64,000 nucleotides of DNA, from the NCBI GenBank assembly GCA_030834985.1, contig JAUQWV010000001.1, forward strand, positions 23,778 through 87,777, read 5' to 3'. Below, one piece after another: positions 1,775 through 64,000 of the stretch. Every line of letters begins with the position of its first letter. Positions within the stretch are counted from its first letter, which is position 1. The stretch is from Candidatus Dojkabacteria bacterium. GTDB lineage: Bacteria > Patescibacteriota > Dojkabacteria > J137. The position numbers were made by a program, and so were the translations under genes. Under the pieces are notes generated by a model. The model ran no database searches, was not told the DNA's origin, and saw nothing but the letters and a program-made list of their open reading frames with translations.

Positions 1775-2971
1775 TTATAGCTGAAGGCTTCCTTCATCCC
1801 CAAGCCGCCAGTAAGCTATTCCTTTTATACCGTAATCTGCCGCGAGTTGTTTTCTTAGTTGTATAGATTCATTATTAGGCCATACAACAACTCGCGTTAC
1901 ACCACCATAATCATATTCGCCCATCATTTCACCCCAATTCTCAATAAATTTAGTAGTTACTTCATAATTATCAAAAAGCTTATCTATTCCGTTATGATAG
2001 TATGCTACCCCATTTTCAGATTCAGAAGGAGTAAAACTTAATCCGCTTTCTGAATAATAGGTTAGATCATATTCTATGGCTCTTTCGGGCCAATCGATTG
2101 CGTATGTATGAATTCCTAGAATTAATTTCTCCCTTGGGATTCCGCTTTTTATTGCATATCTAATTACGTCTTCCAGCCAATCGATTGGCCCAATAGCACC
2201 AATATGATCGCTTGAATGAATTGTGTATGAATAGCCTTGGATTATGAATTGATCAACGATCTCTCCCATCTTTTTATAATCAAGTGTTGCTTTAGATTGA
2301 CTGTAGGATATGTGATCACCCCATTTAGCCAGTGCACTGAACTGCAAGATTTTTTCATGTTCTGCTAATCTACTTTTTAAAGTCCGAAGCATTTCTAAAA
2401 ATAACTTTTGATCATTAATATAAAAGAGTTCAAAGTCCAGATCTATACCTGCATATCCATATGTAACTACATAGTCAATTGTTTCTTCAATGAACCGATC
2501 TATATTTTCTTGAGAATTTAATACACTAGATAGTTTGTCTTTATCAAAAGAAGTAATTGTAGGAATTAGATTAATATTATTATCTTGAGTATAGTAAATT
2601 AAATCGTCCCAGTTTGTATAAAGATTAGTTTTTAGTGTTCCATCTTCATTTAAATCAAACCAAAAAGGACTGACATTTTTAATAAATGTATTATTCTGCA
2701 GTGTTTCAAATCCGCTTACCATATCCCAATCTGGAATCCATCCGTAATATTCAAGTTGATCAATATTTTTAGGCTGTTTAGAAATAGACCTGATCTGCTC
2801 TACCTCTATATTTAATTCACTTTGATTTGAGGTGAAGATCTTAATTTCATTTACTTTTGTGACATCAATAGTGTCGGGATTTAAGTATTTTATGTAAGCA
2901 AAATACCCTGCTACAGCAATTACTACACTAAAGAATAAAAATAAGATGATCCGCATAATAGGTTTATTCAC
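1775..2971 (-). CDS. Glycoside hydrolase family 18-like (chitinase/YaaH-like) membrane-anchored protein
   Basis: 398 aa ORF with an N-terminal TM helix. GIDLDFE resembles the GH18 DxDxE catalytic motif. Confidence 0.55.
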   Translation of the reverse strand: MNKPIMRIILFLFFSVVIAVAGYFAYIKYLNPDTIDVTKVNEIKIFTSNQSELNIEVEQIRSISKQPKNIDQLEYYGWIPDWDMVSGFETLQNNTFIKNVSPFWFDLNEDGTLKTNLYTNWDDLIYYTQDNNINLIPTITSFDKDKLSSVLNSQENIDRFIEETIDYVVTYGYAGIDLDFELFYINDQKLFLEMLRTLKSRLAEHEKILQFSALAKWGDHISYSQSKATLDYKKMGEIVDQFIIQGYSYTIHSSDHIGAIGPIDWLEDVIRYAIKSGIPREKLILGIHTYAIDWPERAIEYDLTYYSESGLSFTPSESENGVAYYHNGIDKLFDNYEVTTKFIENWGEMMGEYDYGGVTRVVVWPNNESIQLRKQLAADYGIKGIAYWRLGDEGSLQL

Positions 2972-4079
2972 CTAATGTTAAAGGTTTGTCGACTTCTTCT
3001 GCTGTAATGGCAATGTTCTCACCTGTGATTTTAAATACATCTTTATCTAGTGATTTTAAGTTTTTGAAGGCAGAGTTATACGTACCAACTGCAGTACCCA
3101 TTTGTTTACCCAATTTAGAGAAGTTTTCTTCAAAAGTGTTAATATCCTTACCTAATTTCTCAACATTTTTTTGAATTTCCTGCGCCTGCTTTTCAATTTT
3201 TAACGCATTCAAACCTTGCAATACAGTTTGTAAATATGCCAAGAATGATGTTGGCGATACAATAATAACTTTCTTTTGTTTGAATGCATATTCTATTAAA
3301 TCATGAGTATTAGTTTTTATAACTCCAATCTTATTAACCAGTAAATCATAGTAGATACCTTCAGAAGGAATAAACATAAAAGCAAAGTCCATTGTATTTT
3401 CTGTTGGTCTAATATATTTAGAAGTTTCGTCAATTCTATTTTTTAAATCTTGTTTAAATATTTTTTGTAGTGCTTCTTTTTCTATTTCATCCTGGCATTC
3501 AACTATCTTATTGTAGTTTTCTAATGAAAATTTAGAATCAACAGGAATTATTTTATCTTTAACAAAAATTGCAGCGTCAACTAAATCTCCATCTTCAAAT
3601 TTATACTGCATTTCAAAAGTTCCAGGTGGCAGAACATTTTCTAAGACTGTTTCTAAAAAATACTCACCTAATATACCTCTCTGTTTAGGATTTTTTAAAA
3701 TATTCTCAAGACTTTGTAATTGTCCTGCAAAGTTTTGAATCTGTTTGTTTGTTTCTCCAACTTTTGTAAGTTCTTGAGTAATATTTTTAATATTTTGTGA
3801 ATATTCCTGAAAGTTCTTTTGTGAAATAGCAAACTGCTGAAGAATACTTTTGTTAGAAGTTCCTAGTTGTTCATTAAGTGCTCTATTCTGTTCAGAAAGT
3901 CTGTCGCTTAATTCTTTTTTTGTTTCATTCTGCAGCTGTAGTAAGTTATTAATCTGAGTTTGAAGTAATACGGCAGTTTTATCTTCATCTTTTGGCTTAT
4001 TTATTTTTACAATTAAAACAGCAACAGCTCCAATTAAGATAATTAGCAATACGATGGTTATAAGGCTTACAGGCTCCAT
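2964..4079 (-). CDS. rmuC: DNA recombination protein RmuC
   Basis: N-terminal TM, long coiled-coil (Q/N/E/K-rich), C-terminal RmuC-type region (FAFMFIPSEGIYYDLL). Confidence 0.75.
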   Translation of the reverse strand: MEPVSLITIVLLIILIGAVAVLIVKINKPKDEDKTAVLLQTQINNLLQLQNETKKELSDRLSEQNRALNEQLGTSNKSILQQFAISQKNFQEYSQNIKNITQELTKVGETNKQIQNFAGQLQSLENILKNPKQRGILGEYFLETVLENVLPPGTFEMQYKFEDGDLVDAAIFVKDKIIPVDSKFSLENYNKIVECQDEIEKEALQKIFKQDLKNRIDETSKYIRPTENTMDFAFMFIPSEGIYYDLLVNKIGVIKTNTHDLIEYAFKQKKVIIVSPTSFLAYLQTVLQGLNALKIEKQAQEIQKNVEKLGKDINTFEENFSKLGKQMGTAVGTYNSAFKNLKSLDKDVFKITGENIAITAEEVDKPLTLGE

Positions 4080-4184
4080 AAAGATTAGGTTAAGAATAAC
4101 TGTAGTTATTCTATCATAAGTGTACCAGGGAATTTAGTGATTGGAGGGCGGAATCCCGCTCCTCCAGATCGGAAATAAAGGATT

Positions 4185-4421
4185 TTATGCGTAAGTTGGC
4201 AGAGGGTTTTTTCGTTTATACTCCTCCAGCCTTCTTAATGCATCTTGTGGCGCGCTCGCTAAAGCGGTATTGAGCGCTTGCTCCGCGTCAAATCGCCGAT
4301 AGCCAGCAGCCTCGACTTCAAAACTTGAGCCGTGCCTGCTTTTTTCTACGGTTGTTTTGACAGCTGAATAGTACTCCTTATACGCCTCAATTAACGCTTC
4401 TGCGAGTTGGTCATTAGACAT
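4185..4421 (-). CDS. Hypothetical small protein (78 aa), GC-rich orphan gene
   Basis: ORF with SD (aaggaga) 8 nt upstream of the ATG on the minus strand. Local GC is much higher than its neighbours. Confidence 0.4.
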   Translation of the reverse strand: MSNDQLAEALIEAYKEYYSAVKTTVEKSRHGSSFEVEAAGYRRFDAEQALNTALASAPQDALRRLEEYKRKNPLPTYA

Positions 4422-4564: not shown

Positions 4565-5572
4565 ATGGAACAACTCACACTTATTGCAGGGTTAGTTTTA
4601 TTAGCTATGGCTGTAACTTTCGCCTATGCGCCGTTTTTAATTAAACTTTTATATAAATTTCAAATTGTTGTTCGGCATCAGCTTATGGACAATAAAATGA
4701 ATGAAGAGTTTGTAAAAATCCAGGGACATAAAACAGGAACTCCAACACTTGGAGGTTTGATGATTGCTGTTTCAGTGTTTTTTCTAGTTATGTTTTGGGT
4801 TCCTGCATCTGACTTAAAGAATGTTTTTTTAATTTTCTGGACACTCTTTACATTGTATGGATTAATTGAAGGTTTAATTGTTTATGCAAGAAAGTTAAGT
4901 GATAAATTTAGAGCATTGGAATCTAGTTTTGAGTGGCGTTTGGGAAAACTTGCAATTTTGTATCTTCTAGGACTTTGGGCAGTCTATTCTATTGTTACTA
5001 TGCTAGCTATAAGTGAGATCACGCTTTTTGGCTTAACAATTTTAATTAATCCTTTAACAATAATTATTGGCTCATTCTTTTTTATTCTTGCGATGTATGC
5101 AATGGAAATCACTGATGGGGCAGATGGATTAGTCACAGGGCAATTTTTAATTGCATTCATATCTTATACCGTAATTAGTTTAGTTTCTGGCAACTTGAAT
5201 TTATTGCCATACCTGGCGTTTATGATAGGATCTTCTCTTGTGTATCTATATTTTAATATTAATCCTGCAAGAGTTTTTATGGGAGGAACGGGCACTTTCC
5301 CAATCGCATTTGCAATTTTATTCTTTTCTATTCTCACAAATACCGTAGATATATTATTAATAATGGGATTAATATTTTGGACAGAACTTGCAACTAGCGC
5401 TTTACAAATTTTATGGATTAAATTCCTTAAAAAGAGATTATTTAAAATTGCACCTTTTCATCATTATTTTGAGTCAATCGGCTGGCCGGAAACAAAGATG
5501 GTTCAAAGGTTTTGGTTATTTTCAGCAATTTTTGCAATACTCTCTTTATTTATATTTGGATTAACCAGATAG
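4565..5572 (+). CDS. mraY: MraY-family (phospho-MurNAc-pentapeptide transferase-like) polytopic membrane protein; canonical catalytic Asp residues not found
   Basis: Clear MraY blocks: KTGTPTLGG, EITDGADGL, ARVFMGG.G, KIAPFHHYFESIGWPE..RFW. No DD dipeptide anywhere in the protein. The GDVGS position reads GGTGT and HHH reads HHY. Confidence 0.8.
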   Translation: MEQLTLIAGLVLLAMAVTFAYAPFLIKLLYKFQIVVRHQLMDNKMNEEFVKIQGHKTGTPTLGGLMIAVSVFFLVMFWVPASDLKNVFLIFWTLFTLYGLIEGLIVYARKLSDKFRALESSFEWRLGKLAILYLLGLWAVYSIVTMLAISEITLFGLTILINPLTIIIGSFFFILAMYAMEITDGADGLVTGQFLIAFISYTVISLVSGNLNLLPYLAFMIGSSLVYLYFNINPARVFMGGTGTFPIAFAILFFSILTNTVDILLIMGLIFWTELATSALQILWIKFLKKRLFKIAPFHHYFESIGWPETKMVQRFWLFSAIFAILSLFIFGLTR

Positions 5573-5574
5573 AA

Positions 5575-6062
5575 ATGCGAAGAGGGCAGCTGCAATATGC
5601 GAGCTGCCCTCTGAAACCGGGATTCTCCATTCCCGGATTGAACCTGGGGGAAGACTCCCCACAGGCGGGCCAAATATTTGACCATCGCCAGATTTGCTCG
5701 TCCCGCAGCCGGGGCGCGACCGATGCTGTTCACTCTGAGAGTGTCCAGCGCAGTGTTGTCGCGCCAATCAGGGACGCTGCGCAAATCTTACAGCCGTTGC
5801 CGGCTGTGGCTTAGGTCTCCCCGCTTACGCTCCCTGGTGGGAGCCTGGGCGGGGCTATCTTTCTTCAGAAAACCCATCCTTTTTTCCTTTCGCGAAGGTT
5901 CGCCAATAAAGGTGACCGCTGGTAGTGCCCATCGTTCTACCCTTGAGACGAGATCTCAAGCGGCTGATTACGCCACCCACCTCGGCGGTTTGGCTCGGGC
6001 TTTCCGCAGAGCCGCCTGAAAGAGCTTGAAGTTTTTATTAGAAACTCACTCAGGCGGCTCTG
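5575..6062 (-). ncRNA. rnpB: GC-rich structured non-coding RNA, most consistent with RNase P RNA (rnpB); tmRNA not excluded
   Basis: ~60% GC block in a ~33% GC genome. Only Arg-rich overlapping ORFs on both strands, none with an SD. On the minus strand, in order: hairpin cagagccgcctga..tcaggcggctctg, directly followed by GGAAAGCCCGAGCC (cf. CR-I GGAAAGUCCGGGCUCC), then GCCAAACCGCCGAGGTGG, AAGGGTAGAACGATGG (cf. CR-II AGGGUGAAANGGUG), then GCTCCCACCAGGGAGCGTAAG (cf. ACUCCACCCGGAGCAAGG). A CR-V/P4 3' strand was not found by eye. Confidence 0.45.
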
Positions 6063-6208
6063 TTAGTTGTTTATTTATTAAAAAGCTATATTCATTATAT
6101 ACTTTTATGCCCGGATAAGTCAATACTTTTTGGCAACAAAACAATAAGCCGCTCTCCCCTCAAATCCTTTTACCTGATATAATTAGTGCGTTTTGTTAAT
6201 CGACGAAA

Positions 6209-8146
6209 ATGTCTACTAATCAGTTTATTCGAAATTTTTGCATAATTGCTCATATAGACCACGGCAAGTCTACCCTAGCTGACCGCCTTATTGAGACTAC
6301 GGGTGCGGTAGCAAGTCGTGAAATGAAAGATAGAATGCTTGATACTTTAGAATTAGAGCAAGAGCGTGGAATCACAATTAAACTCCAGACTGCTCGCTTA
6401 AAATATAATTATAAAGGCGACAAAGCAGAAAAAGGTGAATATACTCTTAATCTTATAGATACTCCAGGTCATGTTGATTTTAGTTATGAAGTTTCAAGAT
6501 CTGTTGCTGCTAGTGAAGGGTGCTTATTGTTAGTTGATGCAACGCAAGGCATTCAGGCGCAAACTTTAACAACTGTGTATAAAGCAATGGAATACGATCT
6601 AAAAATTATTCCAGTGATAAATAAAATTGATATGGATATTGCTGAAGTCGAACGAACAAAGCAAGAGATGATAGAAACTTTTGGCTTCAGTGAAGATGAA
6701 ATTATTTTGGCTTCAGGAAAATCTGGTATAGGTGTGAAAGAAATTTTAGATGCAGTTGTTGAAAGAATTCCTGCATATAAAAAAGAAGATACAAAAATTC
6801 TGTCAGACGAAGATGAGTTAGCTGTAATAGAAGGCAAGGAAATATCAAATACAAAAGCTGTAGTTTTTGATGCTTTTTTTCATGAATATAAAGGAGTAAC
6901 TGCCTTAATTAAAGTTATAAGCGGTGAAATAAAAAAAGGCGATAAAGTTTATTTTATAAGTACTCAAACAGATGTGTCACCAGTAGAAATTGGGTATCTA
7001 ATGCCTAAAATGACAGAAACTTCAGCTATTAAAGAAGGTGAAGTTGGATATATTGCTACGGGCTTAAAGGATATTCATAAAGTTCATTCGGGCGATACAA
7101 TTACTTTATTTAAACAAAACAATTCCCATACAAAAATTCAACCTTTAAAAGGTTACAGACAGCCAAAGCCAATGGTTTATGCTAGTTTGTATCCTGTTGA
7201 AGCTAGTGATTATGAATCTTTTAAAGAGGCATTAGAAAAATTATCATTAAACGATGCTGCTCTAACTTATCAAAAAGAATATTCTCAGGCACTTGGAACT
7301 GGATTTGTTTGCGGTTTTTTAGGCTTGCTACATCTTGAAATCACTCAAGATAGATTAGAACGTGAATATAATATAGATCTTATAAGCACAACTCCAACTG
7401 TAGAATTTAGAGTTTTATTATCAACTAAAGATTATTCCAAGGTTCCGAATATTAATGTTTCAAATATAGATCCCGAAACAAATATTGCAACAATTAGAAC
7501 TGCTGCCGAATTTCCTGAAGGAAGTCACTTAGAAGAAGTTTACGAGCCGTGGGTAAAGTTAGACATTATTACTCCCGAAGAATATATTGGATCAATAATG
7601 GAACTTTGCCAAAATCGAAGAGGCGTTTATAGGCACATGAACTTTTTGAATAAATCAGGAAGTAAAAATCATGCAATCATTGAATACGAAATACCAACAG
7701 TAGAAATTATTGTTAACTTTTTTGATAAATTAAAGTCACTAAGCCACGGTTATGCATCAATGGATTATTCTTTTTTAGAATATCGAAAGGGAGATATTGT
7801 AAAGGTTTCATTATTAGTAAATGGTGAGCCAGCAGAATCATTAAGCTTTTTAACTCATAGATCAAATTCTCAAAGGCGCGGGAGAGAGATGGTTGAAAAA
7901 TTGAAGGAGCTCATCCCGCGCCAGCAATTCAAAGTTCCAATTCAAGCTGCCATTGGTAGCCAGGTGATTGCCCGAGAAACGATTGATGCTTATAAAAAAG
8001 ATGTGCTTGCTAAGCTATATGGTGGTGATGTAACTAGAAAATTAAAATTGTTAGAAAAGCAGAAAAAAGGTAAAAAGAAAATGAAAGCTATTGGCAGTGT
8101 CGAGATTCCTAAAGAAGCTTTTTTAGCTGCGCTAAAAATTGACTAA
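6209..8146 (+). CDS. lepA: Elongation factor 4 (LepA) GTPase
   Basis: G-domain motifs (AHIDHGKST, DTPGH, NKID) and a LepA-specific C-terminal domain. Confidence 0.9.
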   Translation: MSTNQFIRNFCIIAHIDHGKSTLADRLIETTGAVASREMKDRMLDTLELEQERGITIKLQTARLKYNYKGDKAEKGEYTLNLIDTPGHVDFSYEVSRSVAASEGCLLLVDATQGIQAQTLTTVYKAMEYDLKIIPVINKIDMDIAEVERTKQEMIETFGFSEDEIILASGKSGIGVKEILDAVVERIPAYKKEDTKILSDEDELAVIEGKEISNTKAVVFDAFFHEYKGVTALIKVISGEIKKGDKVYFISTQTDVSPVEIGYLMPKMTETSAIKEGEVGYIATGLKDIHKVHSGDTITLFKQNNSHTKIQPLKGYRQPKPMVYASLYPVEASDYESFKEALEKLSLNDAALTYQKEYSQALGTGFVCGFLGLLHLEITQDRLEREYNIDLISTTPTVEFRVLLSTKDYSKVPNINVSNIDPETNIATIRTAAEFPEGSHLEEVYEPWVKLDIITPEEYIGSIMELCQNRRGVYRHMNFLNKSGSKNHAIIEYEIPTVEIIVNFFDKLKSLSHGYASMDYSFLEYRKGDIVKVSLLVNGEPAESLSFLTHRSNSQRRGREMVEKLKELIPRQQFKVPIQAAIGSQVIARETIDAYKKDVLAKLYGGDVTRKLKLLEKQKKGKKKMKAIGSVEIPKEAFLAALKID

Positions 8147-11647: not shown

Positions 11648-12706
11648 ATGCAAGTTTCATCACGACGCTCTAAAAATTATCTGCTTGGCGCTACTGAAAT
11701 TCCGTCTAATATTAAACGGCAAGTTGTAAGTAGACTATTTTGGGGTAGAAGTAACTTTTATAAAAATATTACCCATACATCTATATTGATAATAACAATT
11801 GCAGTAACACTTAGTGGTATTGTTTATAGAGTATCAGATGTAAGTGCTGGCGGTACTGCGTTAAGTGGAGAATATATTGTTGGCTCTGCAGATTTACTAA
11901 CACAAGGCGGCTCAATTTCTACAGTTTTACGTACAGATAATACGAATTTGAGTGCGCTGCAAAATAGGCGCCACACAGTTGCCTTTGGCGAAACACTCGA
12001 GTCTATTGCAGCGCAATACAACGTTTCAATGGATACAATCCGTTGGGCTAATCCAAATTTAATTAGTCCATTTACAAACGATATTCAGGTAGGTTGGGAC
12101 TTAGCAATTCCTCAAATAAATGGTGTGCTTTATACTGTTAGATCAGGTCAAAGTCTTGATGATATTATTTCTCTTACAAGTGTCAATAACAACGAATCAA
12201 ATCTTTTTAACATTGTTGAATTAAACCAGCTATCAGCTCCGTATACTTTAACTCCTGGCACAAAATTATTTATCCCAGGTGGAAATTTATTCGGGGAAGG
12301 CTTTCAAGTTGAAGGAATACCAAGAGGAATATTCATTGATCCTTTATCAAGCCCGGATTGTGACGGTTATCAATATCAAAGGGGTTTTTCTTTTTATCAC
12401 GATGGATTCGATTTATCAAAATGGGATGGATGTACAATACAAGCAGTAGCAAATGGCACAGTTTATTATGCAGGGTGGGAGGTTCTTTCGGGCTTGGCTA
12501 TTAAGATAGATCATGGTGGCGGAATTCATACATACTACTACCATCTAAGTGATATTTACGTAAAACCTGGCGACAGAGTTCAACAAGGTCAGGCAATTGG
12601 CTATATGGGTACAACAGGAAATAGTACAGGAACCCACTTACACTTTGTGCTGAAAAAAGATTATATTGCGGTTGACCCAGAACCTTACGTTCCATATAGA
12701 AAATAG
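11648..12706 (+). CDS. LysM domain-containing M23 family metallopeptidase (peptidoglycan hydrolase)
   Basis: LysM block (FGETLESIAAQYNVSMDTIRWANPNL). M23 motifs (HxxxD region, HTYYYHL, GTTGNSTGTHLHF). Confidence 0.8.
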   Translation: MQVSSRRSKNYLLGATEIPSNIKRQVVSRLFWGRSNFYKNITHTSILIITIAVTLSGIVYRVSDVSAGGTALSGEYIVGSADLLTQGGSISTVLRTDNTNLSALQNRRHTVAFGETLESIAAQYNVSMDTIRWANPNLISPFTNDIQVGWDLAIPQINGVLYTVRSGQSLDDIISLTSVNNNESNLFNIVELNQLSAPYTLTPGTKLFIPGGNLFGEGFQVEGIPRGIFIDPLSSPDCDGYQYQRGFSFYHDGFDLSKWDGCTIQAVANGTVYYAGWEVLSGLAIKIDHGGGIHTYYYHLSDIYVKPGDRVQQGQAIGYMGTTGNSTGTHLHFVLKKDYIAVDPEPYVPYRK

Positions 12707-14048: not shown

Positions 14049-16559
14049 ATGGATCCATTGGTGTTTCTACTAATAATCGTCTTTTTGATAGCGTTCATGG
14101 TTGTCGCCAATATCGTGTTGCAAAGATATTACAACCTAAAAGTAAGAGTTAACGAAACGATTGTAGATAAAGTTGTATTAAAGATTGCAGTTCCTGTACG
14201 AAACGATAAAAAAGCTCTGGCGGCTGAACAAATGTTTCAATCTTTCCACGGAATTCTAAAAGGCGATAAAGCAAGTAAAGATCATTACTCTTTTGAAATT
14301 TTTGCTGCAAATCACGGTATATATTTTGTTGTTGTATGCTCTAATCGATATAGAACCTTTTTAGAAAATCAGATTTATGCACAATATCCAGAAGCTCAAA
14401 TCACTGTTGTACCAGATTATGCACAGCATCATCCAAGCGAGCTGACAACTGTCAGCGAGCTTAGTCTAGAAAGAGAGTTTTTTTTACCTATCAAAACTTT
14501 TACAAGTTTTGAAGTTGACCCTTTAGCATCAATTACAAGTGCTGTATCTAATTTAACCCCCGGTTTTGAGGTTTGGATTCAGCTTTTAGCCCGGCCAATA
14601 AGTAATGACTGGCAAGTTAAAGGTAAAGAATATGTAGATAAGATTAGAAACGAAAAAGATGCTGAAGGCAATAAAAAAGAGCCTGATTCTTCCGTTGTTG
14701 AAACTTTTGGGGATATCTCACGTAAGTCAGATAAGGTTGGTTTTCAGTTTAGAATTAGAATTATAGGAAAAGGACCAGATGAAAATACAGTTAAGCGACT
14801 TGTAGAAGATACTGAAGCCGCATTCAAACAATTCCAAACTACAAAATTAAATAGTATTGTTAAGCCAAAGTCCAAAAAGAAAGGATTTTTTGATAAATTG
14901 GGCGACAAAATAGAATTATTTTTTAGCGGAAAAAGGCTTGGTGATAAATTAACTGCGCTTCAAAAATATCAGTTTAGGTACCTAGACGAACGCGAAAAAA
15001 ATATTGCAAATATCGAAGAGCTTGCCTCGTTATATCATTTGCCAAACGAAACTGTAAAAACTCCGAATATTGCATGGGCTAAATCCAGAAAACTTGAATT
15101 CCCTTTAAATCTACCGGTTCTAAAGCAAGATCCCGCTGCAAATCAGGGAATCCGTGCTATGGCTCTTACAGATTATAGAAATATTCATCTACCTTTTGGC
15201 ATAAAAGCTGAAGATAGAAGACGTCATATGTATTTACTTGGTAAAACTGGTACAGGTAAATCTACTTTTTTAAAGAATATGATTGTAGGTGATATTCTAG
15301 ATGGAAACGGCTTAGCAGTTTTAGATCCGCACGGAGATCTAGTTGAAGAAATCTTAGATTTGATTCCAGAACACAGAATTAAAGATGTAATTTATTTAGA
15401 CCCTTCGGATGTTGAATTCCCGATAGGCCTTAATATGTTAGATATCAAGGAAGGTGAGACACTAGACTTATTAGCAGACGGTATTGTTAATGTATTTAAA
15501 AAGTTCTTTGGCGAAATGTCGTGGGGGCCAAGGCTTCAGCACTTACTATATAACTCTGTAGCTACATTGCTTCACTGTCAAAATGTTTCTTTACTTGCAG
15601 TTTTAAGAATACTAAATGATAAAAACTATAGGACGTTTCTTCTTAAGCAAGTTAAAGATCCATTCTTAATTAAATTCTGGGAGGAAGAATATGCTCAGTT
15701 AAGCATAAACCCAAGGCTATTAGCCGAAGCTGTGGCTCCAATTCAGAATAAAGTTGGTAGATTTTTAGGTTCTACAATGGTCAGAAACATGATTGGCCAA
15801 ATAAAATCTACCATTGATTTATCTGAAGTTATGAACAGCGGGAAAATCTTGTTAGTAAATCTATCTCAAGGAAAGATTGGTGAAGAAAGCTCATCATTAC
15901 TTGGAGCTATGATTGTCACAAGGCTCTATTCTAATGCAATGCAGCGTGCCAGAATGGCAAAGGAAGATAGACGTGATTTCTATTTATATGTGGATGAATT
16001 TCAAAACTTTGCAACGGAATCATTTATTAAAATTTTATCTGAAGCAAGAAAATACGGATTAAACCTAATAGTAACACACCAATATATAGATCAGATTGAT
16101 GAAAAAATTCAGGATGCTATCTTTGGAAATATCGGGACATTAATGAATTATGTTGTAAGTCAAAAAGACGGTGCAAGGCTTGAAAAGGAATATACTCCAT
16201 ATTTAGGTATGGAAGATCTTGTAAACTTAGATAAATATCGAATTGCAATGAAGATGACTGTTGATATGGCACAAACTCCTCCATTTACAGCTATTGCTAT
16301 GAAGCCTAGCTATCAATTTTACGGGTTAAAAGATGAAGTTAAAGAGTTCTGCCGAAGAACATATGCAAAGCCTAGGGATCAAGTTGAATTAAAGCTTAAT
16401 AAATGGGCAAGCCAAGTTTACGATAAAAATGGCAACCTAGTGCAAAAAACTGATGAGGTTGCTCCTACATCTAATAAAAAATTCAGCGGTAAAAAAACAT
16501 TTAAAGATAATAAAAACGCCTCTAACGCTTCTGCTTCACAAAGTATTCCGCAAGCTTAA
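14049..16559 (+). CDS. Membrane-anchored type IV coupling protein-like ATPase (VirD4/TraD/TraG family) with a ~380-aa N-terminal region of unknown function
   Basis: N-terminal TM. Walker A LLGKTGTGKST. Walker B in FYLYVDEFQNF, followed by the RKYG...THQ...Q block typical of T4CPs. Confidence 0.6.
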   Translation: MDPLVFLLIIVFLIAFMVVANIVLQRYYNLKVRVNETIVDKVVLKIAVPVRNDKKALAAEQMFQSFHGILKGDKASKDHYSFEIFAANHGIYFVVVCSNRYRTFLENQIYAQYPEAQITVVPDYAQHHPSELTTVSELSLEREFFLPIKTFTSFEVDPLASITSAVSNLTPGFEVWIQLLARPISNDWQVKGKEYVDKIRNEKDAEGNKKEPDSSVVETFGDISRKSDKVGFQFRIRIIGKGPDENTVKRLVEDTEAAFKQFQTTKLNSIVKPKSKKKGFFDKLGDKIELFFSGKRLGDKLTALQKYQFRYLDEREKNIANIEELASLYHLPNETVKTPNIAWAKSRKLEFPLNLPVLKQDPAANQGIRAMALTDYRNIHLPFGIKAEDRRRHMYLLGKTGTGKSTFLKNMIVGDILDGNGLAVLDPHGDLVEEILDLIPEHRIKDVIYLDPSDVEFPIGLNMLDIKEGETLDLLADGIVNVFKKFFGEMSWGPRLQHLLYNSVATLLHCQNVSLLAVLRILNDKNYRTFLLKQVKDPFLIKFWEEEYAQLSINPRLLAEAVAPIQNKVGRFLGSTMVRNMIGQIKSTIDLSEVMNSGKILLVNLSQGKIGEESSSLLGAMIVTRLYSNAMQRARMAKEDRRDFYLYVDEFQNFATESFIKILSEARKYGLNLIVTHQYIDQIDEKIQDAIFGNIGTLMNYVVSQKDGARLEKEYTPYLGMEDLVNLDKYRIAMKMTVDMAQTPPFTAIAMKPSYQFYGLKDEVKEFCRRTYAKPRDQVELKLNKWASQVYDKNGNLVQKTDEVAPTSNKKFSGKKTFKDNKNASNASASQSIPQA

Positions 16560-16633
16560 AGCTAGCATATACGTTATAATTAAACGCTCGTAAAAATATC
16601 CATGCTATAGGCTGGAAATAAGGAGATCATGTA

Positions 16634-16852
16634 ATGCCAGACAAACCGCAAGAAACAGTTGGCGGCACTTTTTTGGTGCCACCTACCCCACCTGCACACA
16701 TCCCGTCTGAGTTCGAGGTCCTCCCCCCATTCCGTCTGAACAGAGAGAAAGGGGAGGCAAAGAAGCCGTCAGAACCAAGCGGATACTGCGGGTACGGATA
16801 CGACGACATTACAGCCGAACAGCGCGAAGCCCACGAGGATTATGGGGGCTGA
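16634..16852 (+). CDS. Hypothetical Pro-rich acidic small protein (72 aa)
   Basis: SD aaggagatc 7 nt upstream. Terminator hairpin 16869-16892. Confidence 0.5.
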   Translation: MPDKPQETVGGTFLVPPTPPAHIPSEFEVLPPFRLNREKGEAKKPSEPSGYCGYGYDDITAEQREAHEDYGG

Positions 16853-16868
16853 GCGCTAAAACACCTTA

Positions 16869-16900
16869 AGGGCGGGCTAAATCGCCCGCCCTCAAAAACA
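16869..16900 (+). terminator. Rho-independent terminator-like hairpin (agggcgggc/gcccgccct)
   Basis: 9-bp GC stem and 6-nt loop, followed by caaaaacatttcttc. Confidence 0.5.
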
Positions 16901-16912
16901 TTTCTTCTAATA

Positions 16913-16940
16913 TTCACTAATTTACTATCGCTGATATAAT
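16913..16940 (+). promoter_or_regulatory. Sigma70-like promoter (TTCACT-16-TATAAT) for the 16987 gene
   Basis: Hexamers at 16913-16918 and 16935-16940. 5'-UTR hairpin ggttc..gaacc follows. Confidence 0.4.
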
Positions 16941-16986
16941 ACTGTATCCTGGTTCAATTTAGAACCGGAATAAAAAGGGGATGTAA

Positions 16987-17193
16987 ATGTCTCTAAGACG
17001 GGGTGACATAGAAAGTCAGAAGGCTCGTGAACTTGCAGAGGGATATCGCGAAGAGATCTCCACTGACGTACCGAATATAATCATCTTAAGGAGGCGTAAG
17101 CTTCTGAATGATGACGGTAATGGGAGTGAGATGAACATAAGCACTCAGCTTGACGACTTTGTATGTGAATGTACCGACTGCTTTGACGACTAG
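16987..17193 (+). CDS. Hypothetical acidic small protein (68 aa; C-terminal CECTDC)
   Basis: SD aaaagggga. Followed by terminator 17212-17250. Confidence 0.5.
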   Translation: MSLRRGDIESQKARELAEGYREEISTDVPNIIILRRRKLLNDDGNGSEMNISTQLDDFVCECTDCFDD

Positions 17194-17211
17194 CAAACCC
17201 TAACCACATAA

Positions 17212-17250
17212 GTCTGAGAATCTAAAGATTCTCAGACATACTTATTTTGT
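17212..17250 (+). terminator. Rho-independent terminator (gtctgagaatc/gattctcagac + T-tract)
   Basis: Perfect inverted repeat followed by atacttattttgt. Confidence 0.6.
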
Positions 17251-17262
17251 CACCCAAAATCG

Positions 17263-17290
17263 TTGACTTTGTATATATTTGTAATATAAT
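17263..17290 (+). promoter_or_regulatory. Sigma70-like promoter TTGACT-16-TATAAT
   Basis: Consensus -35 at 17263-17268 and consensus -10 at 17285-17290, upstream of the 17343 gene. Confidence 0.55.
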
Positions 17291-17342
17291 AGTATTTAAC
17301 CCTAATTGAATAGGGAATCGTTCTATAGCAAGGAGTTGAAAA

Positions 17343-17579
17343 ATGTTGGGTCATCAAGAATCTAGGTCAAAGTTTCGCCACCCAGCGCGTCTCCCCAACT
17401 ATCAGAAGCCGCAAATACTTAGAGAAGGAGTAGCGGCTTATGAGGAGGAGAAGGAAGACGCTACGGCCCACGCGGGTAGCTGGGAGTACTGGCCTAACGA
17501 CCCGAGTTTGATTCAGCAGTTTGATGACGAGGCTGTGGCGGATGAACCGCCCGGCCAAAATGGCGTTGACTGGATTTAA
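17343..17579 (+). CDS. Hypothetical acidic small protein (78 aa)
   Basis: SD caaggagtt. Terminator 17604-17640. Confidence 0.5.
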   Translation: MLGHQESRSKFRHPARLPNYQKPQILREGVAAYEEEKEDATAHAGSWEYWPNDPSLIQQFDDEAVADEPPGQNGVDWI

Positions 17580-17603
17580 TCCAGCGCGCTATATACTCCT
17601 ACT

Positions 17604-17640
17604 GTCCTGAGCAGCATGCTGCTCAGGACAATCCTTTATC
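17604..17640 (+). terminator. Rho-independent terminator (gtcctgagcagc/gctgctcaggac)
   Basis: 12-bp stem followed by aatcctttat. Confidence 0.55.
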
Positions 17641-17676
17641 CTATAGTAATTTTTTCTAAATTTTCTTCTAAAATCC

Positions 17677-17704
17677 TTGCATCATAATAGTTTTATGATA
17701 TTAT
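17677..17704 (+). promoter_or_regulatory. Sigma70-like promoter TTGCAT-16-TATTAT with TG extended -10
   Basis: Located upstream of the 11-codon ORF. Confidence 0.45.
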
Positions 17705-17737
17705 CGAAACATCCTTAAAAGAAAGGAGGTGCGCAGC

Positions 17738-17773
17738 ATGAAGAACAAGAAGTTTAATAATTGCTGCAAGTAG
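17738..17773 (+). CDS. 11-codon mini-ORF (MKNKKFNNCCK) with a strong SD
   Basis: aaaggaggt is 8 nt upstream of the ATG. Followed by a ~70-nt untranslated stretch, then hairpin 17843-17875 whose loop contains aaggagg. Confidence 0.35.
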   Translation: MKNKKFNNCCK

Positions 17774-17842
17774 ACGACCCTGCCGGCCGGATACCGATCG
17801 AAGTGACGTAGTTAGTCCTTCCCACCCCTTATTCTTTTGGAA

Positions 17843-21893: not shown

Positions 21894-23189
21894 TTATCTT
21901 GAATGTTTTGTTTCTTGATTACTACTTTTACTTATATTTAAAAGTAAACCAACACCCATTAAAGTTACTAAAGTGTTGCTTCCTCCGTATGTGAAGAAAG
22001 GCAGGGGCATTCCGCCAAATGGAATTATAGCTAGATTGGCAGCGATATTAAGGAATGCCTGAATAGAGATCCATCCAGTAATGCCAAGCGCAATGAGAGC
22101 TAAATATTTATTCTTAGCATTTCGAGCAATTTGAAGTCCTAGCGACATAAAATAAAAGTAGCCGAATATTAAAATTAGTGAGCCTAAGAGGCCGAATTCT
22201 TCACCAAAGACGGCAAAAATTGAGTCAGTGTAAGCTGCTTCCTGCAGAAAAAATAATTTTTGCCGTGATTCACCATATCCTACTCCAAAAAGGCCTCCTG
22301 ATCCTATTGCAATTAGTCCATTCCAGATTTGGAAACTACTACCCTGTTTATTTTCTGGTTCTCCATTAACCAATATTTCTACAAATGACTGTACTCTTTC
22401 TCTACGATAAGGCTCTATAATTGAAGCTCCAACTCCAACTATTAAAGCTAAAATCAGCATTAATAGTACAAAACGGGATTCTTTTTTTGTTGTGCTTGCT
22501 GCAAATGATATTGCAAAGAATGTTAATACAATTACTACTATTGTATCTAAGTCTCTTTCTAGCAGAATTAATAAACTTGTAACTACAACTACTATAAGAG
22601 GCAAGAACTTATAGCAGAATTTTAAGATCGGATGCAAATATTCATTATTTTTATATCCCTTAATCCACTTTTCGATTTTATTTTTAGCGTTATCGCTAAT
22701 TGTAAGCCAAAAACTGGTAAATAAAATAATAGCAAGCTTTGCAAGCTCTGCCGGCTGAATATCAAAAACTCCGGGAATTCTAATCCATCTTGTAGCTCCA
22801 TTAAGTGTTACTACTCCGGGCATTTCAATATTAAATACTGCTTGAGGGATTAAATATAATAGTAATACTGAACTTATAATTAAAAGCCATTTAGTTACGA
22901 ATCGTAAGCTTCTATACGATAGCTTGTAAAATATATAAGCTAAAACTAACCCAATGACTATTAAAAGCAATTGTCTTTTAACAAAATAAAAGGTGTCCTC
23001 GTATCTTACAAATGCTAAAACTGCGCTTGCGCTGAATATCATTAAAATACCTGCTACTAAAAATGCAAGTACTAGAATAATGAGCTGTATATTTGGGCGG
23101 TCTGCTTCTTTCTTTTTAATTTGTGCAGACCGCCTTGTAGTAACTATTCTTTTTTTATTTTTTTTAGATCTACCGAACATAGCTAACAA
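21894..23189 (-). CDS. ftsW: SEDS family peptidoglycan glycosyltransferase (FtsW/RodA)
   Basis: Polytopic, with a conserved C-terminal block. Basic N-terminal extension. Confidence 0.8.
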   Translation of the reverse strand: MLAMFGRSKKNKKRIVTTRRSAQIKKKEADRPNIQLIILVLAFLVAGILMIFSASAVLAFVRYEDTFYFVKRQLLLIVIGLVLAYIFYKLSYRSLRFVTKWLLIISSVLLLYLIPQAVFNIEMPGVVTLNGATRWIRIPGVFDIQPAELAKLAIILFTSFWLTISDNAKNKIEKWIKGYKNNEYLHPILKFCYKFLPLIVVVVTSLLILLERDLDTIVVIVLTFFAISFAASTTKKESRFVLLMLILALIVGVGASIIEPYRRERVQSFVEILVNGEPENKQGSSFQIWNGLIAIGSGGLFGVGYGESRQKLFFLQEAAYTDSIFAVFGEEFGLLGSLILIFGYFYFMSLGLQIARNAKNKYLALIALGITGWISIQAFLNIAANLAIIPFGGMPLPFFTYGGSNTLVTLMGVGLLLNISKSSNQETKHSR

Positions 23190-40967: not shown

Positions 40968-41594
40968 ATGAATAACTTAATAAGTTGGTTTTCAAAACTT
41001 AATATATATTTAGGAGTATTTTTAATTCTGAGCGCTCCTGCATACCTATTTTTATCAGCAGAGCTAAAACCTGTACTAGTTACATCTAATTCTTTACCTG
41101 CAACTCCTACAGAAAGAGAAAATGAAATACTAACTAACAACTTAGCCATTAAAGGCGTGCTTTCTGGTTCTAGAAACACAATGAAAGCTGTAAAAGTTGC
41201 AGATGATGCTCATATTAGAATTAATTCTATAGGGTTAGATGCAAAGATTTACGAAGGAGCTGATTTTAAAACCTTAGAACAGGGAATTTGGAGAATGCCG
41301 ATGCATGCTACACCAGACGACCAAGTTAGTGGTCAACCTGTTGTTTTAGCAGGTCACAGATGGGGTGAAGATAATTTTACATACGAATATAGAAGTAAAA
41401 ACCTATTTTTGAATATCCCTACTCTAAATAAGGGTGACATTATTGAAATTACCTGGAATGGTCAGTTTTATAAATACAAAGTCGAATACTTAAGTAAAGA
41501 TATTTATGTGGATAGATTATCTGACCTGATTCTAATAACCTGTGTAGACTATGTTTCTACAACTAGATATTTTGTTTTTGCTGAAAGAGTTTAA
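40968..41594 (+). CDS. Sortase family transpeptidase
   Basis: N-terminal TM, LAGHR His, ILITC active-site Cys, downstream Arg. Confidence 0.75.
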   Translation: MNNLISWFSKLNIYLGVFLILSAPAYLFLSAELKPVLVTSNSLPATPTERENEILTNNLAIKGVLSGSRNTMKAVKVADDAHIRINSIGLDAKIYEGADFKTLEQGIWRMPMHATPDDQVSGQPVVLAGHRWGEDNFTYEYRSKNLFLNIPTLNKGDIIEITWNGQFYKYKVEYLSKDIYVDRLSDLILITCVDYVSTTRYFVFAERV

Positions 41595-63265: not shown

Positions 63266-64000
63266 TTAAGTTATGTGTAAGAAGAAGGTTTGACTCCAGA
63301 GCCAATCCATAGAGCCGTTTTGATTTCGAATATTATGGTCGTTTGTATATAAATTCCACATATATGTGAACCAATATCCGCCCATAACAGCTTGGTTGCC
63401 GTTTACTGTCTTAAACCATACTTTCTTTACTCTTAAAGAAGGATCTCTTTCAAATGTTAGTGTAACAACTTTACCTCCAAGCTGATTTTTCATACCTTGT
63501 ACATAGCCGCTAAAGCCTCCAAATCGCCACGAGTTATTAGCAACATAGTCCATCATATTGTTTATATCATCCATAGTATAAGTGTTGCTTTTAAATCCCC
63601 AATTTCTGTTGTATTGTCCAGGCATTGGAGTTGCCCAAGGAGTATCGTTTACCGCCCTTAAATACCCATAAGCAGTACCACTTCCATTGTAGCTTTGGAA
63701 CATTGTATCGTTATCGGCAGTACCAAAACCTTGATTGTTATCGGCAGAATATAGTGCTTCAATAATTTGTCCGCCATACATAAGAATTTGACCTTTAGTT
63801 TCATCAGCAGCCCATCTGGAATTTTGTGAGCCGTTATATACCTGAGACCTTGCATCGTTATACATAAAACCTGCATGATATACGCCATAGGTTCTAAATG
63901 CGATTGCTTGAGCTTTAATGGCTTCTTCCGGCCAGCAATCCCATAAGAAGTTAGGGTTATCAATTACATACTTACTGGGATTACTGGCCACTTGCTGCGC
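63266..64000 (-). CDS. SpoIID/LytB-domain protein, C-terminal part (gene continues beyond the window end)
   Basis: AQAIAFRTY matches the SpoIID signature. The ORF is open to the window edge. Confidence 0.6.
   Translation of the reverse strand, partial: AQQVASNPSKYVIDNPNFLWDCWPEEAIKAQAIAFRTYGVYHAGFMYNDARSQVYNGSQNSRWAADETKGQILMYGGQIIEALYSADNNQGFGTADNDTMFQSYNGSGTAYGYLRAVNDTPWATPMPGQYNRNWGFKSNTYTMDDINNMMDYVANNSWRFGGFSGYVQGMKNQLGGKVVTLTFERDPSLRVKKVWFKTVNGNQAVMGGYWFTYMWNLYTNDHNIRNQNGSMDWLWSQTFFLHIT

What the first reader, a model, noticed from the sequence alone, without database searches (positions are those of the whole stretch)
4565..5572. MraY homolog lacking the canonical catalytic aspartates
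Alignment by eye to E. coli MraY is unambiguous in four blocks (KRGTPTMGG, NLTDGLDGL, AQVFMGDVGS, MAPIHHHYELKGWPE). The protein contains no DD dipeptide at all; the DDxxK Mg-binding site aligns to YARKLSDK. The third catalytic Asp in GDVGS is Gly (GGTGT), and the HHH motif is HHY. A PNPT-superfamily protein missing all three Asp residues considered essential would be either a pseudo-enzyme or regulator, or an enzyme with a re-wired active site. The same genome segment encodes FtsW and several PG hydrolases, so a functional translocase I is expected.
Basis: seen in the sequence. Interest (0 to 1): 0.6.

Follow-up and report, generated by a model that had tools for sequence, protein, structure and literature searches.

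The report
MraY with relocated metal-binding carboxylate
This gene is most likely the organism's real cell-wall enzyme MraY, but in it and nearly all its Dojkabacteria relatives the "essential" magnesium-binding aspartate is a glycine and a nearby asparagine has become glutamate, which looks like a natural re-wiring of an antibiotic-target active site.

Summary
The ORF at 4565-5572 (+, 335 aa) is real and clearly MraY-like: PF00953, best PDB matches are MraY, and an AF2 model (pLDDT 93) has TM 0.74-0.80 to MraY structures. There is no DD dipeptide, FMGD is FMGG (Gly241), and HHH is HHY. One alignment is wrong: the DD motif aligns to Glu102-Gly103, not to YARKLSDK.

The Asn of NxTDG (A. aeolicus N190) is Glu181. 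In 463 aligned MraY sequences, an acidic residue at this position never co-occurs with Asp at the D265 position. Asn190 never co-occurs with Gly, Ala or Ser there. The swap marks a monophyletic clade of about 150 Dojkabacteria-type sequences. It recurs in three unrelated CPR lineages.

In most clade members the gene sits in the dcw cluster (ftsW-murG-murB-murA-mraZ-rsmH-ftsI-mraY). No second MraY-like gene was found nearby. In the window's subclade the gene has moved next to rmuC and lepA.

In human DPAGT1 the equivalent Asn and Asp together bind the catalytic Mg2+. My reading is a functional translocase I whose Mg2+ carboxylate moved from TM8 to TM5, not a pseudo-enzyme. This is untested biochemically.

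The parts
4565..5572 (+). mraY-type phospho-MurNAc-pentapeptide translocase gene (335 aa), Dojkabacteria 'E/G' variant
   Evidence: ORF. PF00953. TIGR00445 at 137 bits. PDB MraY hits. AF2 model with pLDDT 93 and pTM 0.91. Foldseek TM 0.74-0.80 to MraY structures.
4730..4747 (+). K56-T-G-T59-P60-T61, the 'KxGTPTxGG' loop (A. aeolicus K70...T75), retained
   Evidence: Alignments. T59, P60, G63 and G64 are invariant in the family.
4868..4873 (+). Glu102-Gly103, at the position of the DD motif (E. coli D115-D116, A. aeolicus D117-D118)
   Evidence: In the clade the first position is always Asp or Glu (93 D, 55 E). The second is free to vary: G 74, V 29, E 22, D 21.
5105..5107 (+). Glu181, at the position of A. 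aeolicus N190 / DPAGT1 N185 (the Asn of N-x-T-D-G). This is the proposed new Mg2+ carboxylate.
   Evidence: In the clade it is E 140 and D 10; in canonical sequences it is N 271 of 271.
5114..5125 (+). D184-G185-A186-D187 (A. aeolicus D193-G194-L195-D196), uridine and ribose binding loop, retained
   Evidence: Invariant D184, G185 and D187.
5255..5296 (+). N231-I-N-P-A-R-V-F238-M-G240-G241-T-G-T. N255 and F262 equivalents are kept. Gly241 replaces the Mg2+-binding Asp (A. aeolicus D265, E. coli D267).
   Evidence: In the clade the residue is G 127, A 11, S 7, E 1, N 1 and never D.
5453..5482 (+). P297-F-H299-H300-Y301-F-E303-S-I-G306, the MraY-specific loop E 'PxHHHxExxG' motif with the third His replaced by Tyr
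   Evidence: H299 and H300 are invariant. Tyr at the third position also occurs in canonical MraYs.
21894..23189 (-). FtsW/RodA/SpoVE (SEDS) lipid II polymerase gene. It shows the organism uses lipid II.
   Evidence: PF01098 at 266 bits. tblastn with Dojkabacteria FtsW gives 2.7e-44.
11648..12706 (+). LysM + peptidase M23 (peptidoglycan-binding endopeptidase)
40968..41594 (+). Sortase (anchors proteins to the peptidoglycan precursor)
63266..63991 (-). SpoIID-domain protein (peptidoglycan lytic enzyme family)
1775..4079 (-). GH18 glycosidase and RmuC genes, the conserved upstream neighbours of the relocated mraY in this subclade
   Evidence: The same order GH18-RmuC-mraY...LepA is found in L001, L007 and L011.
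6209..8146 (+). lepA, the conserved downstream neighbour

Best explanation
The ORF is the lineage's genuine MraY (translocase I). It transfers phospho-MurNAc-pentapeptide from UDP-MurNAc-pentapeptide to undecaprenyl phosphate to make lipid I. It does this with a re-wired metal site.

In canonical PNPT enzymes one Asn on TM5 (A. aeolicus N190 / DPAGT1 N185) and one Asp at the start of TM8 (D265 / D252) together hold the Mg2+ that clamps the UDP pyrophosphate. In this clade the Asp is Gly241 and the Asn is Glu181. The single carboxylate ligand has therefore been transposed from TM8 to TM5, and charge and location of the site are preserved.

- The first Asp of the DD pair, the proposed base or Lys partner, is kept as Glu102.
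- The second Asp of the pair caps TM8 and positions the TM8 Asp in DPAGT1. Here it has lost that job and drifts (Gly103).
- The uridine pocket, the K/GTPT loop and loop E (HH) are unchanged, so the nucleotide substrate is probably unchanged.

Shown: the residue pattern, its clade-wide conservation, its recurrence, the dcw-cluster position of clade members, and the MraY fold. Inferred: that Glu181 binds Mg2+ and that the enzyme makes lipid I.
For: 1. Three alignment methods place E102/G103, E181 and G241 on D117/D118, N190 and D265.

2. Covariation in 463 aligned sequences: (N,D) 272; (E,G) 122; (E,A) 8; (E,S) 7; (D,G) 5; (D,A) 3; (D,T) 1; (D,N) 1; (E,E) 1. There is no (acid,D) and no (N,G/A/S).

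3. The acid-190 / non-Asp-265 state arose independently at least three more times. P0196/P0214/P0227 (D,G) have (N,D) nearest neighbours at 50-51% identity. P0413 (D,T) and P0412 (D,N) likewise. The P0214/P0227 genes lie in mraY-murD-ftsW order.

4. The Dojkabacteria variant clade is monophyletic in an NJ tree. Its sister is a small canonical (N,D,DD) WS6 clade.

5. In 24 GTDB species loci the variant directly follows ftsI in the dcw cluster. L021 reads ftsW-murG-murB-murA-mraZ-rsmH-(ftsL-size ORF)-ftsI-mraY, and complete genome CP129470.1 (L016) reads mraZ-rsmH-x-ftsI-mraY.

6. No second MraY-like sequence occurs in 86 loci (each up to +/-10 kb around the gene) or in the 64-kb window. No large contig carries both types (contig lengths).

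7. Substrate-binding residues are invariant across 60 sequences down to 32% identity: T59, P60, G63, G64, D184, G185, D187, N231, P234, A235, R236, H299, H300, G306, W307.

8. The window encodes lipid II and peptidoglycan users: FtsW, sortase, LysM-M23 and SpoIID.

9. Literature:
- D265 is the Mg2+ ligand of MraY. N190 and G264 line one pocket, and one inhibitor amine touches both N190 and D265 (PMC6606608).
- In DPAGT1 the Mg2+ is coordinated by Asn185, Asp252 and the pyrophosphate. D115/D116 mutants keep at least 10% activity. D116 N-caps TM8 and stabilises D252. D252A keeps 7% and D252N is 5-fold more active. N185D alone drops to 0.7% (PMC6218659).
- DPAGT1 N185/D252 correspond to MraY-CB N172/D231 (PMC9494639).

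10. The plausible intermediates (N,N) and (D,N) exist in nature.
Against: - There is no biochemical or genetic test. Lipid I synthesis by any E/G-type MraY is unproven.
- I could not obtain model coordinates, so the Glu181 to Gly241 distance was not measured. Proximity rests on published structures of homologues.
- In DPAGT1, Asn185 was proposed to have a second role, guiding the lipid phosphate. A carboxylate might do this poorly (N185D = 0.7%).
- Most of the covariation signal is one ancestral event inherited by many sequences. Only about 4 independent lineages support it.
- The whole genome of the window organism was not visible, so a distant second PNPT cannot be excluded.
- In the window's subclade the gene has left the dcw cluster, and no murG or mur ligase lies in the 64 kb.
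- TIGR00445 is below cut-off (137 vs 192). Canonical Dojkabacteria (154) and a Saccharimonadales MraY (183) are also below.
Confidence: 0.6

Rival explanations
1. It is a functional lipid I synthase, but Glu181 is not the replacement Mg2+ ligand. The metal is held by other residues (Glu102, Asp184, pyrophosphate and waters), or the enzyme has shifted metal preference, pH optimum or nucleotide-sugar or peptide specificity. On this reading the N-to-E change serves another purpose, for example reshaping the uridine-adjacent pocket.
For: - The dcw context and conserved uridine and HH motifs argue for activity but do not say how Mg2+ is bound.
- Natural (N,N) and (A,N) MraYs with no carboxylate at either position exist. 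DPAGT1 D252N is hyperactive. So a carboxylate at this site is not strictly required.
- T75-equivalent, also in the uridine-adjacent pocket, is variable in the clade: T 81, N 36, R 11, S 7, D 6.
Against: The strict exclusion between an acid at 190 and Asp at 265, repeated in about 4 independent lineages, is most simply explained by the two side chains sharing one job at one site. In DPAGT1 these two residues are exactly the two protein ligands of Mg2+.
Confidence: 0.22
2. It is a paralogue with a diverged or non-peptidoglycan role. A canonical mraY elsewhere in the same genome does the real work.
For: - In the window's subclade the gene lies outside any dcw cluster, between rmuC and lepA.
- In L004 it follows a Wzy_C/O-antigen-ligase-like gene.
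- The whole genome could not be scanned.
- A canonical MraY type does exist within Dojkabacteria (P0106/L003).
Against: - Deeper members of the same monophyletic clade occupy the ftsI-mraY slot of the dcw cluster.
- The canonical WS6 type occurs in genomes whose ftsI is not followed by an mraY (L003).
- No contig length is shared between the two protein lists.
- No second MraY-like ORF or fragment occurs in 86 loci or the window.
- The genome-contig scan returned one locus per assembly, although its pattern [RK]IAP[ILF]HH[HY]F also matches canonical MraYs.
Confidence: 0.08
3. It is a catalytically dead pseudo-enzyme or regulator retained for a structural or scaffolding role, for example in a divisome complex.
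For: - The literature calls D117, D118 and D265 critical for MraY activity, and none is Asp here.
- The TIGR00445 score is below cut-off.
Against: - A dead enzyme would not keep every uridine, ribose and loop E contact invariant over 30-35% identity divergence.
- It would not show a compensatory gain of a carboxylate at the neighbouring ligand position.
- These genomes keep murA, murB, murG, ftsW and ftsI next to it, and no other translocase was seen.
- DPAGT1 tolerates changes at all three Asp equivalents.
Confidence: 0.05

Closest known systems
Bacterial MraY (translocase I; PF00953, TIGR00445; structures 4J72 A. aeolicus, 5JNQ C. bolteae, 8G01/8TLU E. coli)
   Same: - Ten-helix PNPT fold, with Foldseek TM 0.74-0.80.
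- K/GTPTxGG loop, TDGxDG uridine loop, N255 and F262 equivalents, and the PxHH.xExxG loop E motif.
- dcw-cluster position in most clade members.
   Different: - DDD motif D117/D118/D265 is E102/G103/G241.
- N190 is E181.
- S268 is Thr or Ala.
- The TIGR00445 score is below the equivalog cut-off.
- The gene has relocated out of the dcw cluster in the window's subclade.
Human DPAGT1/GPT (PNPT superfamily; 5O5E, 6BW5, 6FM9)
   Same: Same superfamily fold (TM about 0.7; profile hit 2.7e-05). It is the only member I read about where the substrate-Mg2+ complex defines the ligands: Asn185 + Asp252 + pyrophosphate. These are the two positions swapped here.
   Different: DPAGT1 transfers GlcNAc-1-P to dolichyl-P. 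It has the canonical Asn/Asp pair, and it lacks the MraY loop E HHH motif.
Canonical Dojkabacteria/WS6 MraY (P0106, P0121 of WS6 GW2011_GWF2_39_15; locus L003)
   Same: Sister clade in the NJ tree. Same phylum-level group. Also scores below the TIGR00445 cut-off, at 154 bits.
   Different: - Keeps N, D and DD ('NINDGLDGL', 'FMGDxGS', 'DDS').
- Shorter, at 302-320 aa.
- Sits after murG rather than after ftsI.
Kaiserbacteria-type MraY (L066, L068, L080, L082, L085, L086)
   Same: Another CPR lineage in which the same two positions are remodelled. The gene is in mraY-ftsW-murG order.
   Different: It goes in the opposite direction. N190 is Gly ('YASGVIDG') and G264-D265 is S/T-E or S-D. The carboxylate stays on TM8 and is often lengthened to Glu.
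Archaeal pseudomurein MraY-like (NF053644)
   Same: PNPT fold and shared C-terminal half.
   Different: It scores only 79 bits against a 450-bit cut-off, so the window protein is not a member.

Membership tests
PNPT superfamily / Glycos_transf_4 (PF00953) | Pfam domain above the gathering score | tested here: met
   57.6 bits vs 27, residues 128-258.
MraY (TIGR00445 equivalog) | Whole-protein score above the NCBIfam cut-off (192.05 bits) | tested here: not met
   The window protein scores 137 bits. Other clade members score 109-111. Canonical WS6 P0106 (154) and Saccharimonadales P0146 (183) also fail. The independent D/G variant P0196 passes at 202. The cut-off is therefore a poor discriminator in CPR.
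MraY | MraY three-dimensional fold (10 TM helices, TM9 break, loop E helix) | tested here: met
   AF2 model with pLDDT 93 and pTM 0.91. The top 24 Foldseek PDB hits are all MraY, with TM 0.65-0.80. DPAGT1 ranks lower.
MraY | DDD motif: three Asp (A. aeolicus D117, D118, D265) described as critical for activity | tested here: not met
   The equivalents are Glu102, Gly103 and Gly241. Literature definition in PMC6606608.
MraY | Asn of N-x-T-D-G (A. aeolicus N190 / B. subtilis N171), catalytically important | tested here: not met
   It is Glu181. In the clade it is E 140 and D 10.
MraY | Uridine/ribose pocket: K70, D193, G194, L195, D196, N255, F262 (A. aeolicus numbering) | tested here: met
   The equivalents are K56, D184, G185, A186, D187, N231 and F238. 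D184, G185, D187 and N231 are invariant in the family.
MraY | MraY-specific loop E motif PxHHHxExxG | tested here: met
   The motif reads P297-F-H-H-Y-F-E-S-I-G306. The first two His (B. subtilis H289/H290 equivalents) are invariant. The third is Tyr, as in some canonical MraYs.
MraY | Gene located in the dcw (division and cell wall) cluster | tested here: inconclusive
   Not in the window, where the order is GH18-rmuC-mraY-lepA. It is in the dcw cluster in 24 loci of the same clade, directly after ftsI.
MraY | Only translocase I of the genome (orthologue rather than paralogue) | tested here: inconclusive
   There is no second copy in the 64-kb window or in 86 loci (each up to +/-10 kb around the gene). 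No contig lengths are shared between the variant and canonical lists. Whole genomes were not scannable with these tools.
MraY | Mg2+-dependent transfer of phospho-MurNAc-pentapeptide to C55-P (lipid I synthesis) | not testable with these tools
   This requires an enzyme assay or complementation.
Archaeal pseudomurein MraY family (NF053644) | Score above the 450-bit cut-off | tested here: not met
   79 bits.
WecA (TIGR02380) | Score above the 326-bit cut-off | tested here: not met
   31 bits.

The most novel reading that the evidence does not exclude
The carboxylate transposition is adaptive. It removes the Asp265 and Asn190 side chains, which are contact points for tunicamycin, mureidomycin, and muraymycin/caprazamycin-type nucleoside antibiotics (hot spots HS5 and HS1). 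Dojkabacteria and three other CPR lineages would thereby have evolved an MraY that is intrinsically insensitive to these natural inhibitors while remaining catalytically competent. If true, it would be a natural blueprint for target-based resistance. It would also show that the 'invariant' Mg2+ Asp of PNPT enzymes is replaceable.
Probability: 0.15. Interest if true: 0.75.

Novelty: new variant of a known kind. Interest (0 to 1): 0.52.

Why it matters
MraY is an essential antibiotic target. Its DDD motif, and D265 in particular, is treated as invariant and as the Mg2+ ligand. The catalytic mechanism and the metal coordination in the substrate complex are still argued mainly by analogy with DPAGT1.

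This finding offers a natural experiment. A deep clade, plus at least three independent small lineages, have dcw-cluster MraYs that lack this Asp but have gained a carboxylate at the partner Asn position. It predicts strong sign epistasis between positions 190 and 265. It predicts that N190E/D265G double mutants of model MraYs are active while the single mutants are not. It suggests an evolutionary path through the observed (N,N) and (D,N) states.

The change also touches two inhibitor hot spots, so it bears on inhibitor design and on possible resistance routes.

In practice, these proteins fall below the TIGR00445 cut-off and are deposited as 'hypothetical protein'. Pathway reconstructions of Dojkabacteria can therefore wrongly report MraY as missing.

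Tried and rejected

2. I tried to test for a second copy by matching contig lengths. The canonical WS6 MraY search showed none on the large variant-bearing contigs. The control search with MurG was saturated by more than 120 closer Dojkabacteria MurGs, all above 400 bits. It therefore did not show MurG on those contigs either. The control is uninformative, and the presence of murG in the window's own subclade remains unverified.

'One locus per assembly' is only weak evidence against a second copy.

4. K133 (E. coli): HMMER aligns it to Arg125, while MAFFT aligns it to Lys128. Both are nearly invariant in the family. I make no claim about loss of this Lys.

5. No atomic coordinates of the AF2 model are exposed, so the Glu181-Gly241 distance could not be measured.

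6. Literature searches for 'Dojkabacteria' + 'MraY' (0 papers), MraY + CPR terms and 'DDD motif' + 'not conserved' found no prior description. The library excludes most subscription journals.

7. dN/dS was not attempted, because the closest relatives are 72-77% identical at the protein level and synonymous sites would be saturated.

8. The GC-rich intergenic element downstream of the gene was checked against Rfam and found no family.
Full report
**1. The object**

Window 4565-5572 (+) is an intact 335-aa ORF with an ATG start. The genome is about 34% GC.
- It matches PF00953 at 57.6 bits against a gathering score of 27.
- It matches TIGR00445 mraY at 137 bits, below the 192-bit equivalog cut-off. 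Archaeal MraY-like and WecA models score far lower.
- By sequence its only strong PDB relatives are MraY chains: 5JNQ 3.7e-28, E. coli 8TLU/8G01 about 1.6e-25, A. aeolicus 4J72 4.5e-20.
- An AlphaFold2 model built on a 60-sequence family alignment has mean pLDDT 93 and pTM 0.91.
- Its top 24 Foldseek hits in the PDB are all MraY (TM 0.65-0.80). DPAGT1 follows.

**2. Checking the residues**

I used HMMER pairwise alignments to PDB MraYs, a family profile against the same chains, and MAFFT alignments with E. coli MraY. My E. coli sequence and numbering agree with the PDB-derived alignment and with the literature equivalences. All three methods give the same equivalences.

| Window residue | A. 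aeolicus equivalent |
|---|---|
| K56 | K70 |
| T61 | T75 |
| E102-G103 | D117-D118 |
| E181 | N190 |
| D184 / G185 / D187 | D193 / G194 / D196 |
| N231 | N255 |
| F238 | F262 |
| G240-G241 | G264-D265 |
| H299-H300-Y301 | H324-H326 |

- The proposed alignment of DDxxK to YARKLSDK is wrong. DD corresponds to Glu102-Gly103.
- HHY also occurs in otherwise canonical MraYs, e.g. L055, so it is not remarkable.

**3. Is it a one-off?**

No. A search of 5.8 billion proteins returned about 90 close to moderately distant homologues with the same pattern. A profile search of 1.84 billion cluster representatives and a scan of GTDB species genomes added more.

I aligned 463 sequences and tabulated the residue pairs at (N190, D265).

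| Pair (190, 265) | Count |
|---|---|
| (N,D) | 272 |
| (E,G) | 122 |
| (E,A) | 8 |
| (E,S) | 7 |
| (D,G) | 5 |
| (D,A) | 3 |
| (D,T) | 1 |
| (D,N) | 1 |
| (E,E) | 1 |

There are a few other combinations such as (N,N), (A,D) and (G,E). There is not one (acid,D) and not one (N,G/A/S).

Within the about 150 variant sequences:
- The D117 position is always acidic (D 93, E 55).
- The D118 position is free (G 74, V 29, E 22, D 21).
- D193, G194 and D196 are invariant. N255, H324 and H325 each show a single substitution (N255-equivalent 148 N + 1 E; H325-equivalent 145 H + 1 Y) apart from alignment gaps.

Sixty family members down to 32% identity share invariant T59, P60, G63, G64, D184, G185, D187, N231, P234, A235, R236, H299, H300, G306 and W307. 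That is the signature of an enzyme under purifying selection on its nucleotide-binding site.

**4. Orthologue or paralogue?**

An NJ tree (no bootstrap) shows the variant sequences as one clade. Its sister is a small canonical (N,D,DD) group of WS6/Dojkabacteria proteins (P0106, P0121 and relatives).

I used the dcw proteins of the canonical locus L003 as probes. The variant gene directly follows ftsI in 24 GTDB species loci: L015-L035, L038, L039, L041 and L042.

Pfam annotation confirms two cases.
- L021 reads ftsW-murG-murB-murA-mraZ-rsmH-(104-aa ORF)-ftsI-variant mraY.
- The complete Dojkabacteria genome CP129470.1 (L016) reads mraZ-rsmH-x-ftsI-variant mraY.

In the canonical lineage (L003) mraY follows murG instead, and nothing MraY-like follows ftsI.

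No locus of 86, and no other place in the 64-kb window, holds a second MraY-like ORF or fragment. No other window ORF of at least 120 aa hits PF00953. No large contig length is shared between the variant list and the canonical WS6 list.

The window's own subclade (L001, L007, L011 and others) has moved the gene to a conserved GH18-rmuC-mraY-...-lepA neighbourhood. The window still encodes an FtsW/RodA SEDS polymerase, a sortase, a LysM-M23 peptidase and a SpoIID protein. Lipid II is therefore evidently used.

What I could not do is scan a whole variant-bearing genome.

**5. Independent recurrences**

Three further lineages carry an acid at 190 together with a non-Asp at 265. Their nearest relatives are canonical.
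- P0196/P0214/P0227: 'NAVDITDG' + 'FFMGGTGA'. Best (N,D) neighbours are at 50-51% identity.
- P0413: (D,T). Neighbours are Peregrinibacteria/Peribacteria-type (N,D) at 46-47%.
- P0412: (D,N). Neighbours are (N,D) at 48%.

P0214 and P0227 lie in mraY-(amidohydrolase)-murD(-ftsW) order. P0196 even passes the TIGR00445 cut-off at 202 bits.

Kaiserbacteria-type MraYs show the reverse remodelling: N190 to Gly, with Ser/Thr-Glu or Ser-Asp at 264-265. The two positions therefore behave as a coupled pair in several CPR lineages.

**6. Mechanistic reading**

Published structures give the link.
- In MraY, D117/D118/D265 are the 'DDD motif' and D265 is the Mg2+-coordinating residue. N190 and G264 line the same 'uridine-adjacent' pocket. 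The amine of 3'-hydroxymureidomycin A contacts both N190 and D265 (PMC6606608).
- B. subtilis N171, D231, D98 and D99 are catalytically important. D98 is the proposed base for C55-P (PMC5039524).
- In the DPAGT1-UDP-GlcNAc-Mg2+ complex the metal is bound by Asn185, Asp252, the alpha and beta phosphates and two waters.
- DPAGT1 Asp115 pairs with Lys125. Asp116 N-caps TMH8 and stabilises Asp252.
- D115 and D116 mutants retain at least 10% activity. D252A retains 7%. D252N is 5-fold more active. N185D alone is nearly dead at 0.7% (PMC6218659).
- DPAGT1 N185/D252/K125 correspond to MraY-CB N172/D231/K111 (PMC9494639).

Put together, the variant has moved the one protein carboxylate of the Mg2+ site from TM8 (D265 to G241) to TM5 (N190 to E181). 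Three observations then fit.
- Two carboxylates are never seen together. This matches N185D being deleterious in a D252 background.
- Asn never pairs with Gly, Ala or Ser.
- The D118 position, whose job is to position D265, becomes free to vary once D265 is gone.

The first Asp, the base or Lys partner, stays acidic. A stepwise path (N,D) to (N,N) to (D,N) to (D/E, G/A/S) is plausible, because every intermediate is observed in nature.

All of this section is inference from homologues. Nothing here shows that Glu181 binds Mg2+ or that the enzyme makes lipid I.

**7. Comparison with known families, and novelty**

The protein works like MraY and is, by fold, motifs, phylogeny and the gene context of its clade, an MraY orthologue. 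It fails two of the features usually listed as defining: the DDD motif and Asn190. It also fails the NCBIfam equivalog threshold. That threshold also rejects canonical Dojkabacteria and a Saccharimonadales MraY, and NCBI records name some of these proteins 'hypothetical protein'.

I found no paper describing this variant in the searchable library. The library is incomplete. I class the finding as a new variant of a known kind. It should be a moderate surprise for PNPT enzymologists, and it is directly testable.

**8. Verdict**

The pseudo-enzyme reading is unlikely and the re-wired-active-site reading is favoured. My confidence is about 0.85 that this is the functional translocase I of the lineage. 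It is about 0.6 for the specific carboxylate-transposition mechanism.

Noticed in passing
window 5573-6075 (between mraY stop and lepA start): A roughly 500-nt GC-rich island in a 34% GC genome with no credible ORF. It folds far better than dinucleotide shuffles on either strand (z = -8.0 on +, -8.6 on -). No Rfam family reaches threshold; the best is sX14 at 27.9 bits against GA 80. It is a candidate unclassified structured RNA or a small GC-rich insert.
   Followed up: partly
window 4151-4401, 16601-18201, 42201-43801, 44401-45501; L007 11901-12301 and 15001-15901; L011 11551-11901 and 14601-15601: There are further GC-rich islands (over 48% GC). Some are intergenic, such as 16.6-18.2 kb upstream of tRNA-Gln. 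Some cover ORFs without a Pfam match above its gathering score (515 aa and 325 aa at 42.2-45.4 kb). The closest relatives have islands at similar intergenic positions (mraY-lepA, lepA-prfA), but no sequence similarity was detected between any of the islands compared. Their nature is unknown.
   Followed up: partly
L066, L068, L080, L082, L085, L086 (Kaiserbacteria-labelled genomes): A different re-wiring of the same MraY site. The N190 equivalent is Gly ('YASGVIDGIDGL'), and G264-D265 is Ser/Thr-Glu or Ser-Asp ('RFYMSETGT', 'RFWMTETGT'). The first D of DD is Asn in the S/T-E members (L066, L068, L082). The genes lie in mraY-ftsW-murG order.
   Followed up: partly
P0109, P0110, P0113, P0118, P0403, P0421, P0447, P0449, P0458, L077 and others: These are natural MraY homologues with Asn at the Mg2+-Asp position ('FMGNVGS'), often with 'ED' instead of 'DD'. 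They parallel the hyperactive DPAGT1 D252N mutant reported in PMC6218659.
   Followed up: no
L017-L035, L038, L039, L041, L042 (Dojkabacteria dcw-cluster MraYs): This subclade is even more diverged than the window protein. The K70 equivalent is Thr ('TNGTPNMGG'), DD is 'DV', and FMG is 'FWNGGPGA'. The gene still sits directly after ftsI.
   Followed up: no
window 49632-55238: Probable integrated mobile island. tRNA-Glu (49632-49707) abuts a large serine recombinase (49667-51166, -). An NgoPII-type restriction enzyme (53293-54135) and a C5 cytosine methylase (52305-53291) follow.
   Followed up: no
window 14049-16559 and L016 12022-14442: A VirD4/TraG-like coupling ATPase (TrwB_AAD_bind, DUF87) occurs in the window. 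A homologous-domain protein lies about 1 kb downstream of the variant mraY (one 336-aa ORF between them) in the complete Dojkabacteria genome CP129470.1.
   Followed up: no
window 45477-49523 (+), 37177-38751 (+), 20402-21892 (+): Large ORFs (1348, 524 and 496 aa) with no Pfam match at E <= 0.001.
   Followed up: no
L004 8516-9949: In one branch of the variant clade (P0066) the mraY variant lies immediately downstream of a Wzy_C (O-antigen ligase/polymerase-like) membrane protein gene, near dnaA, rnpA and yidC.
   Followed up: no
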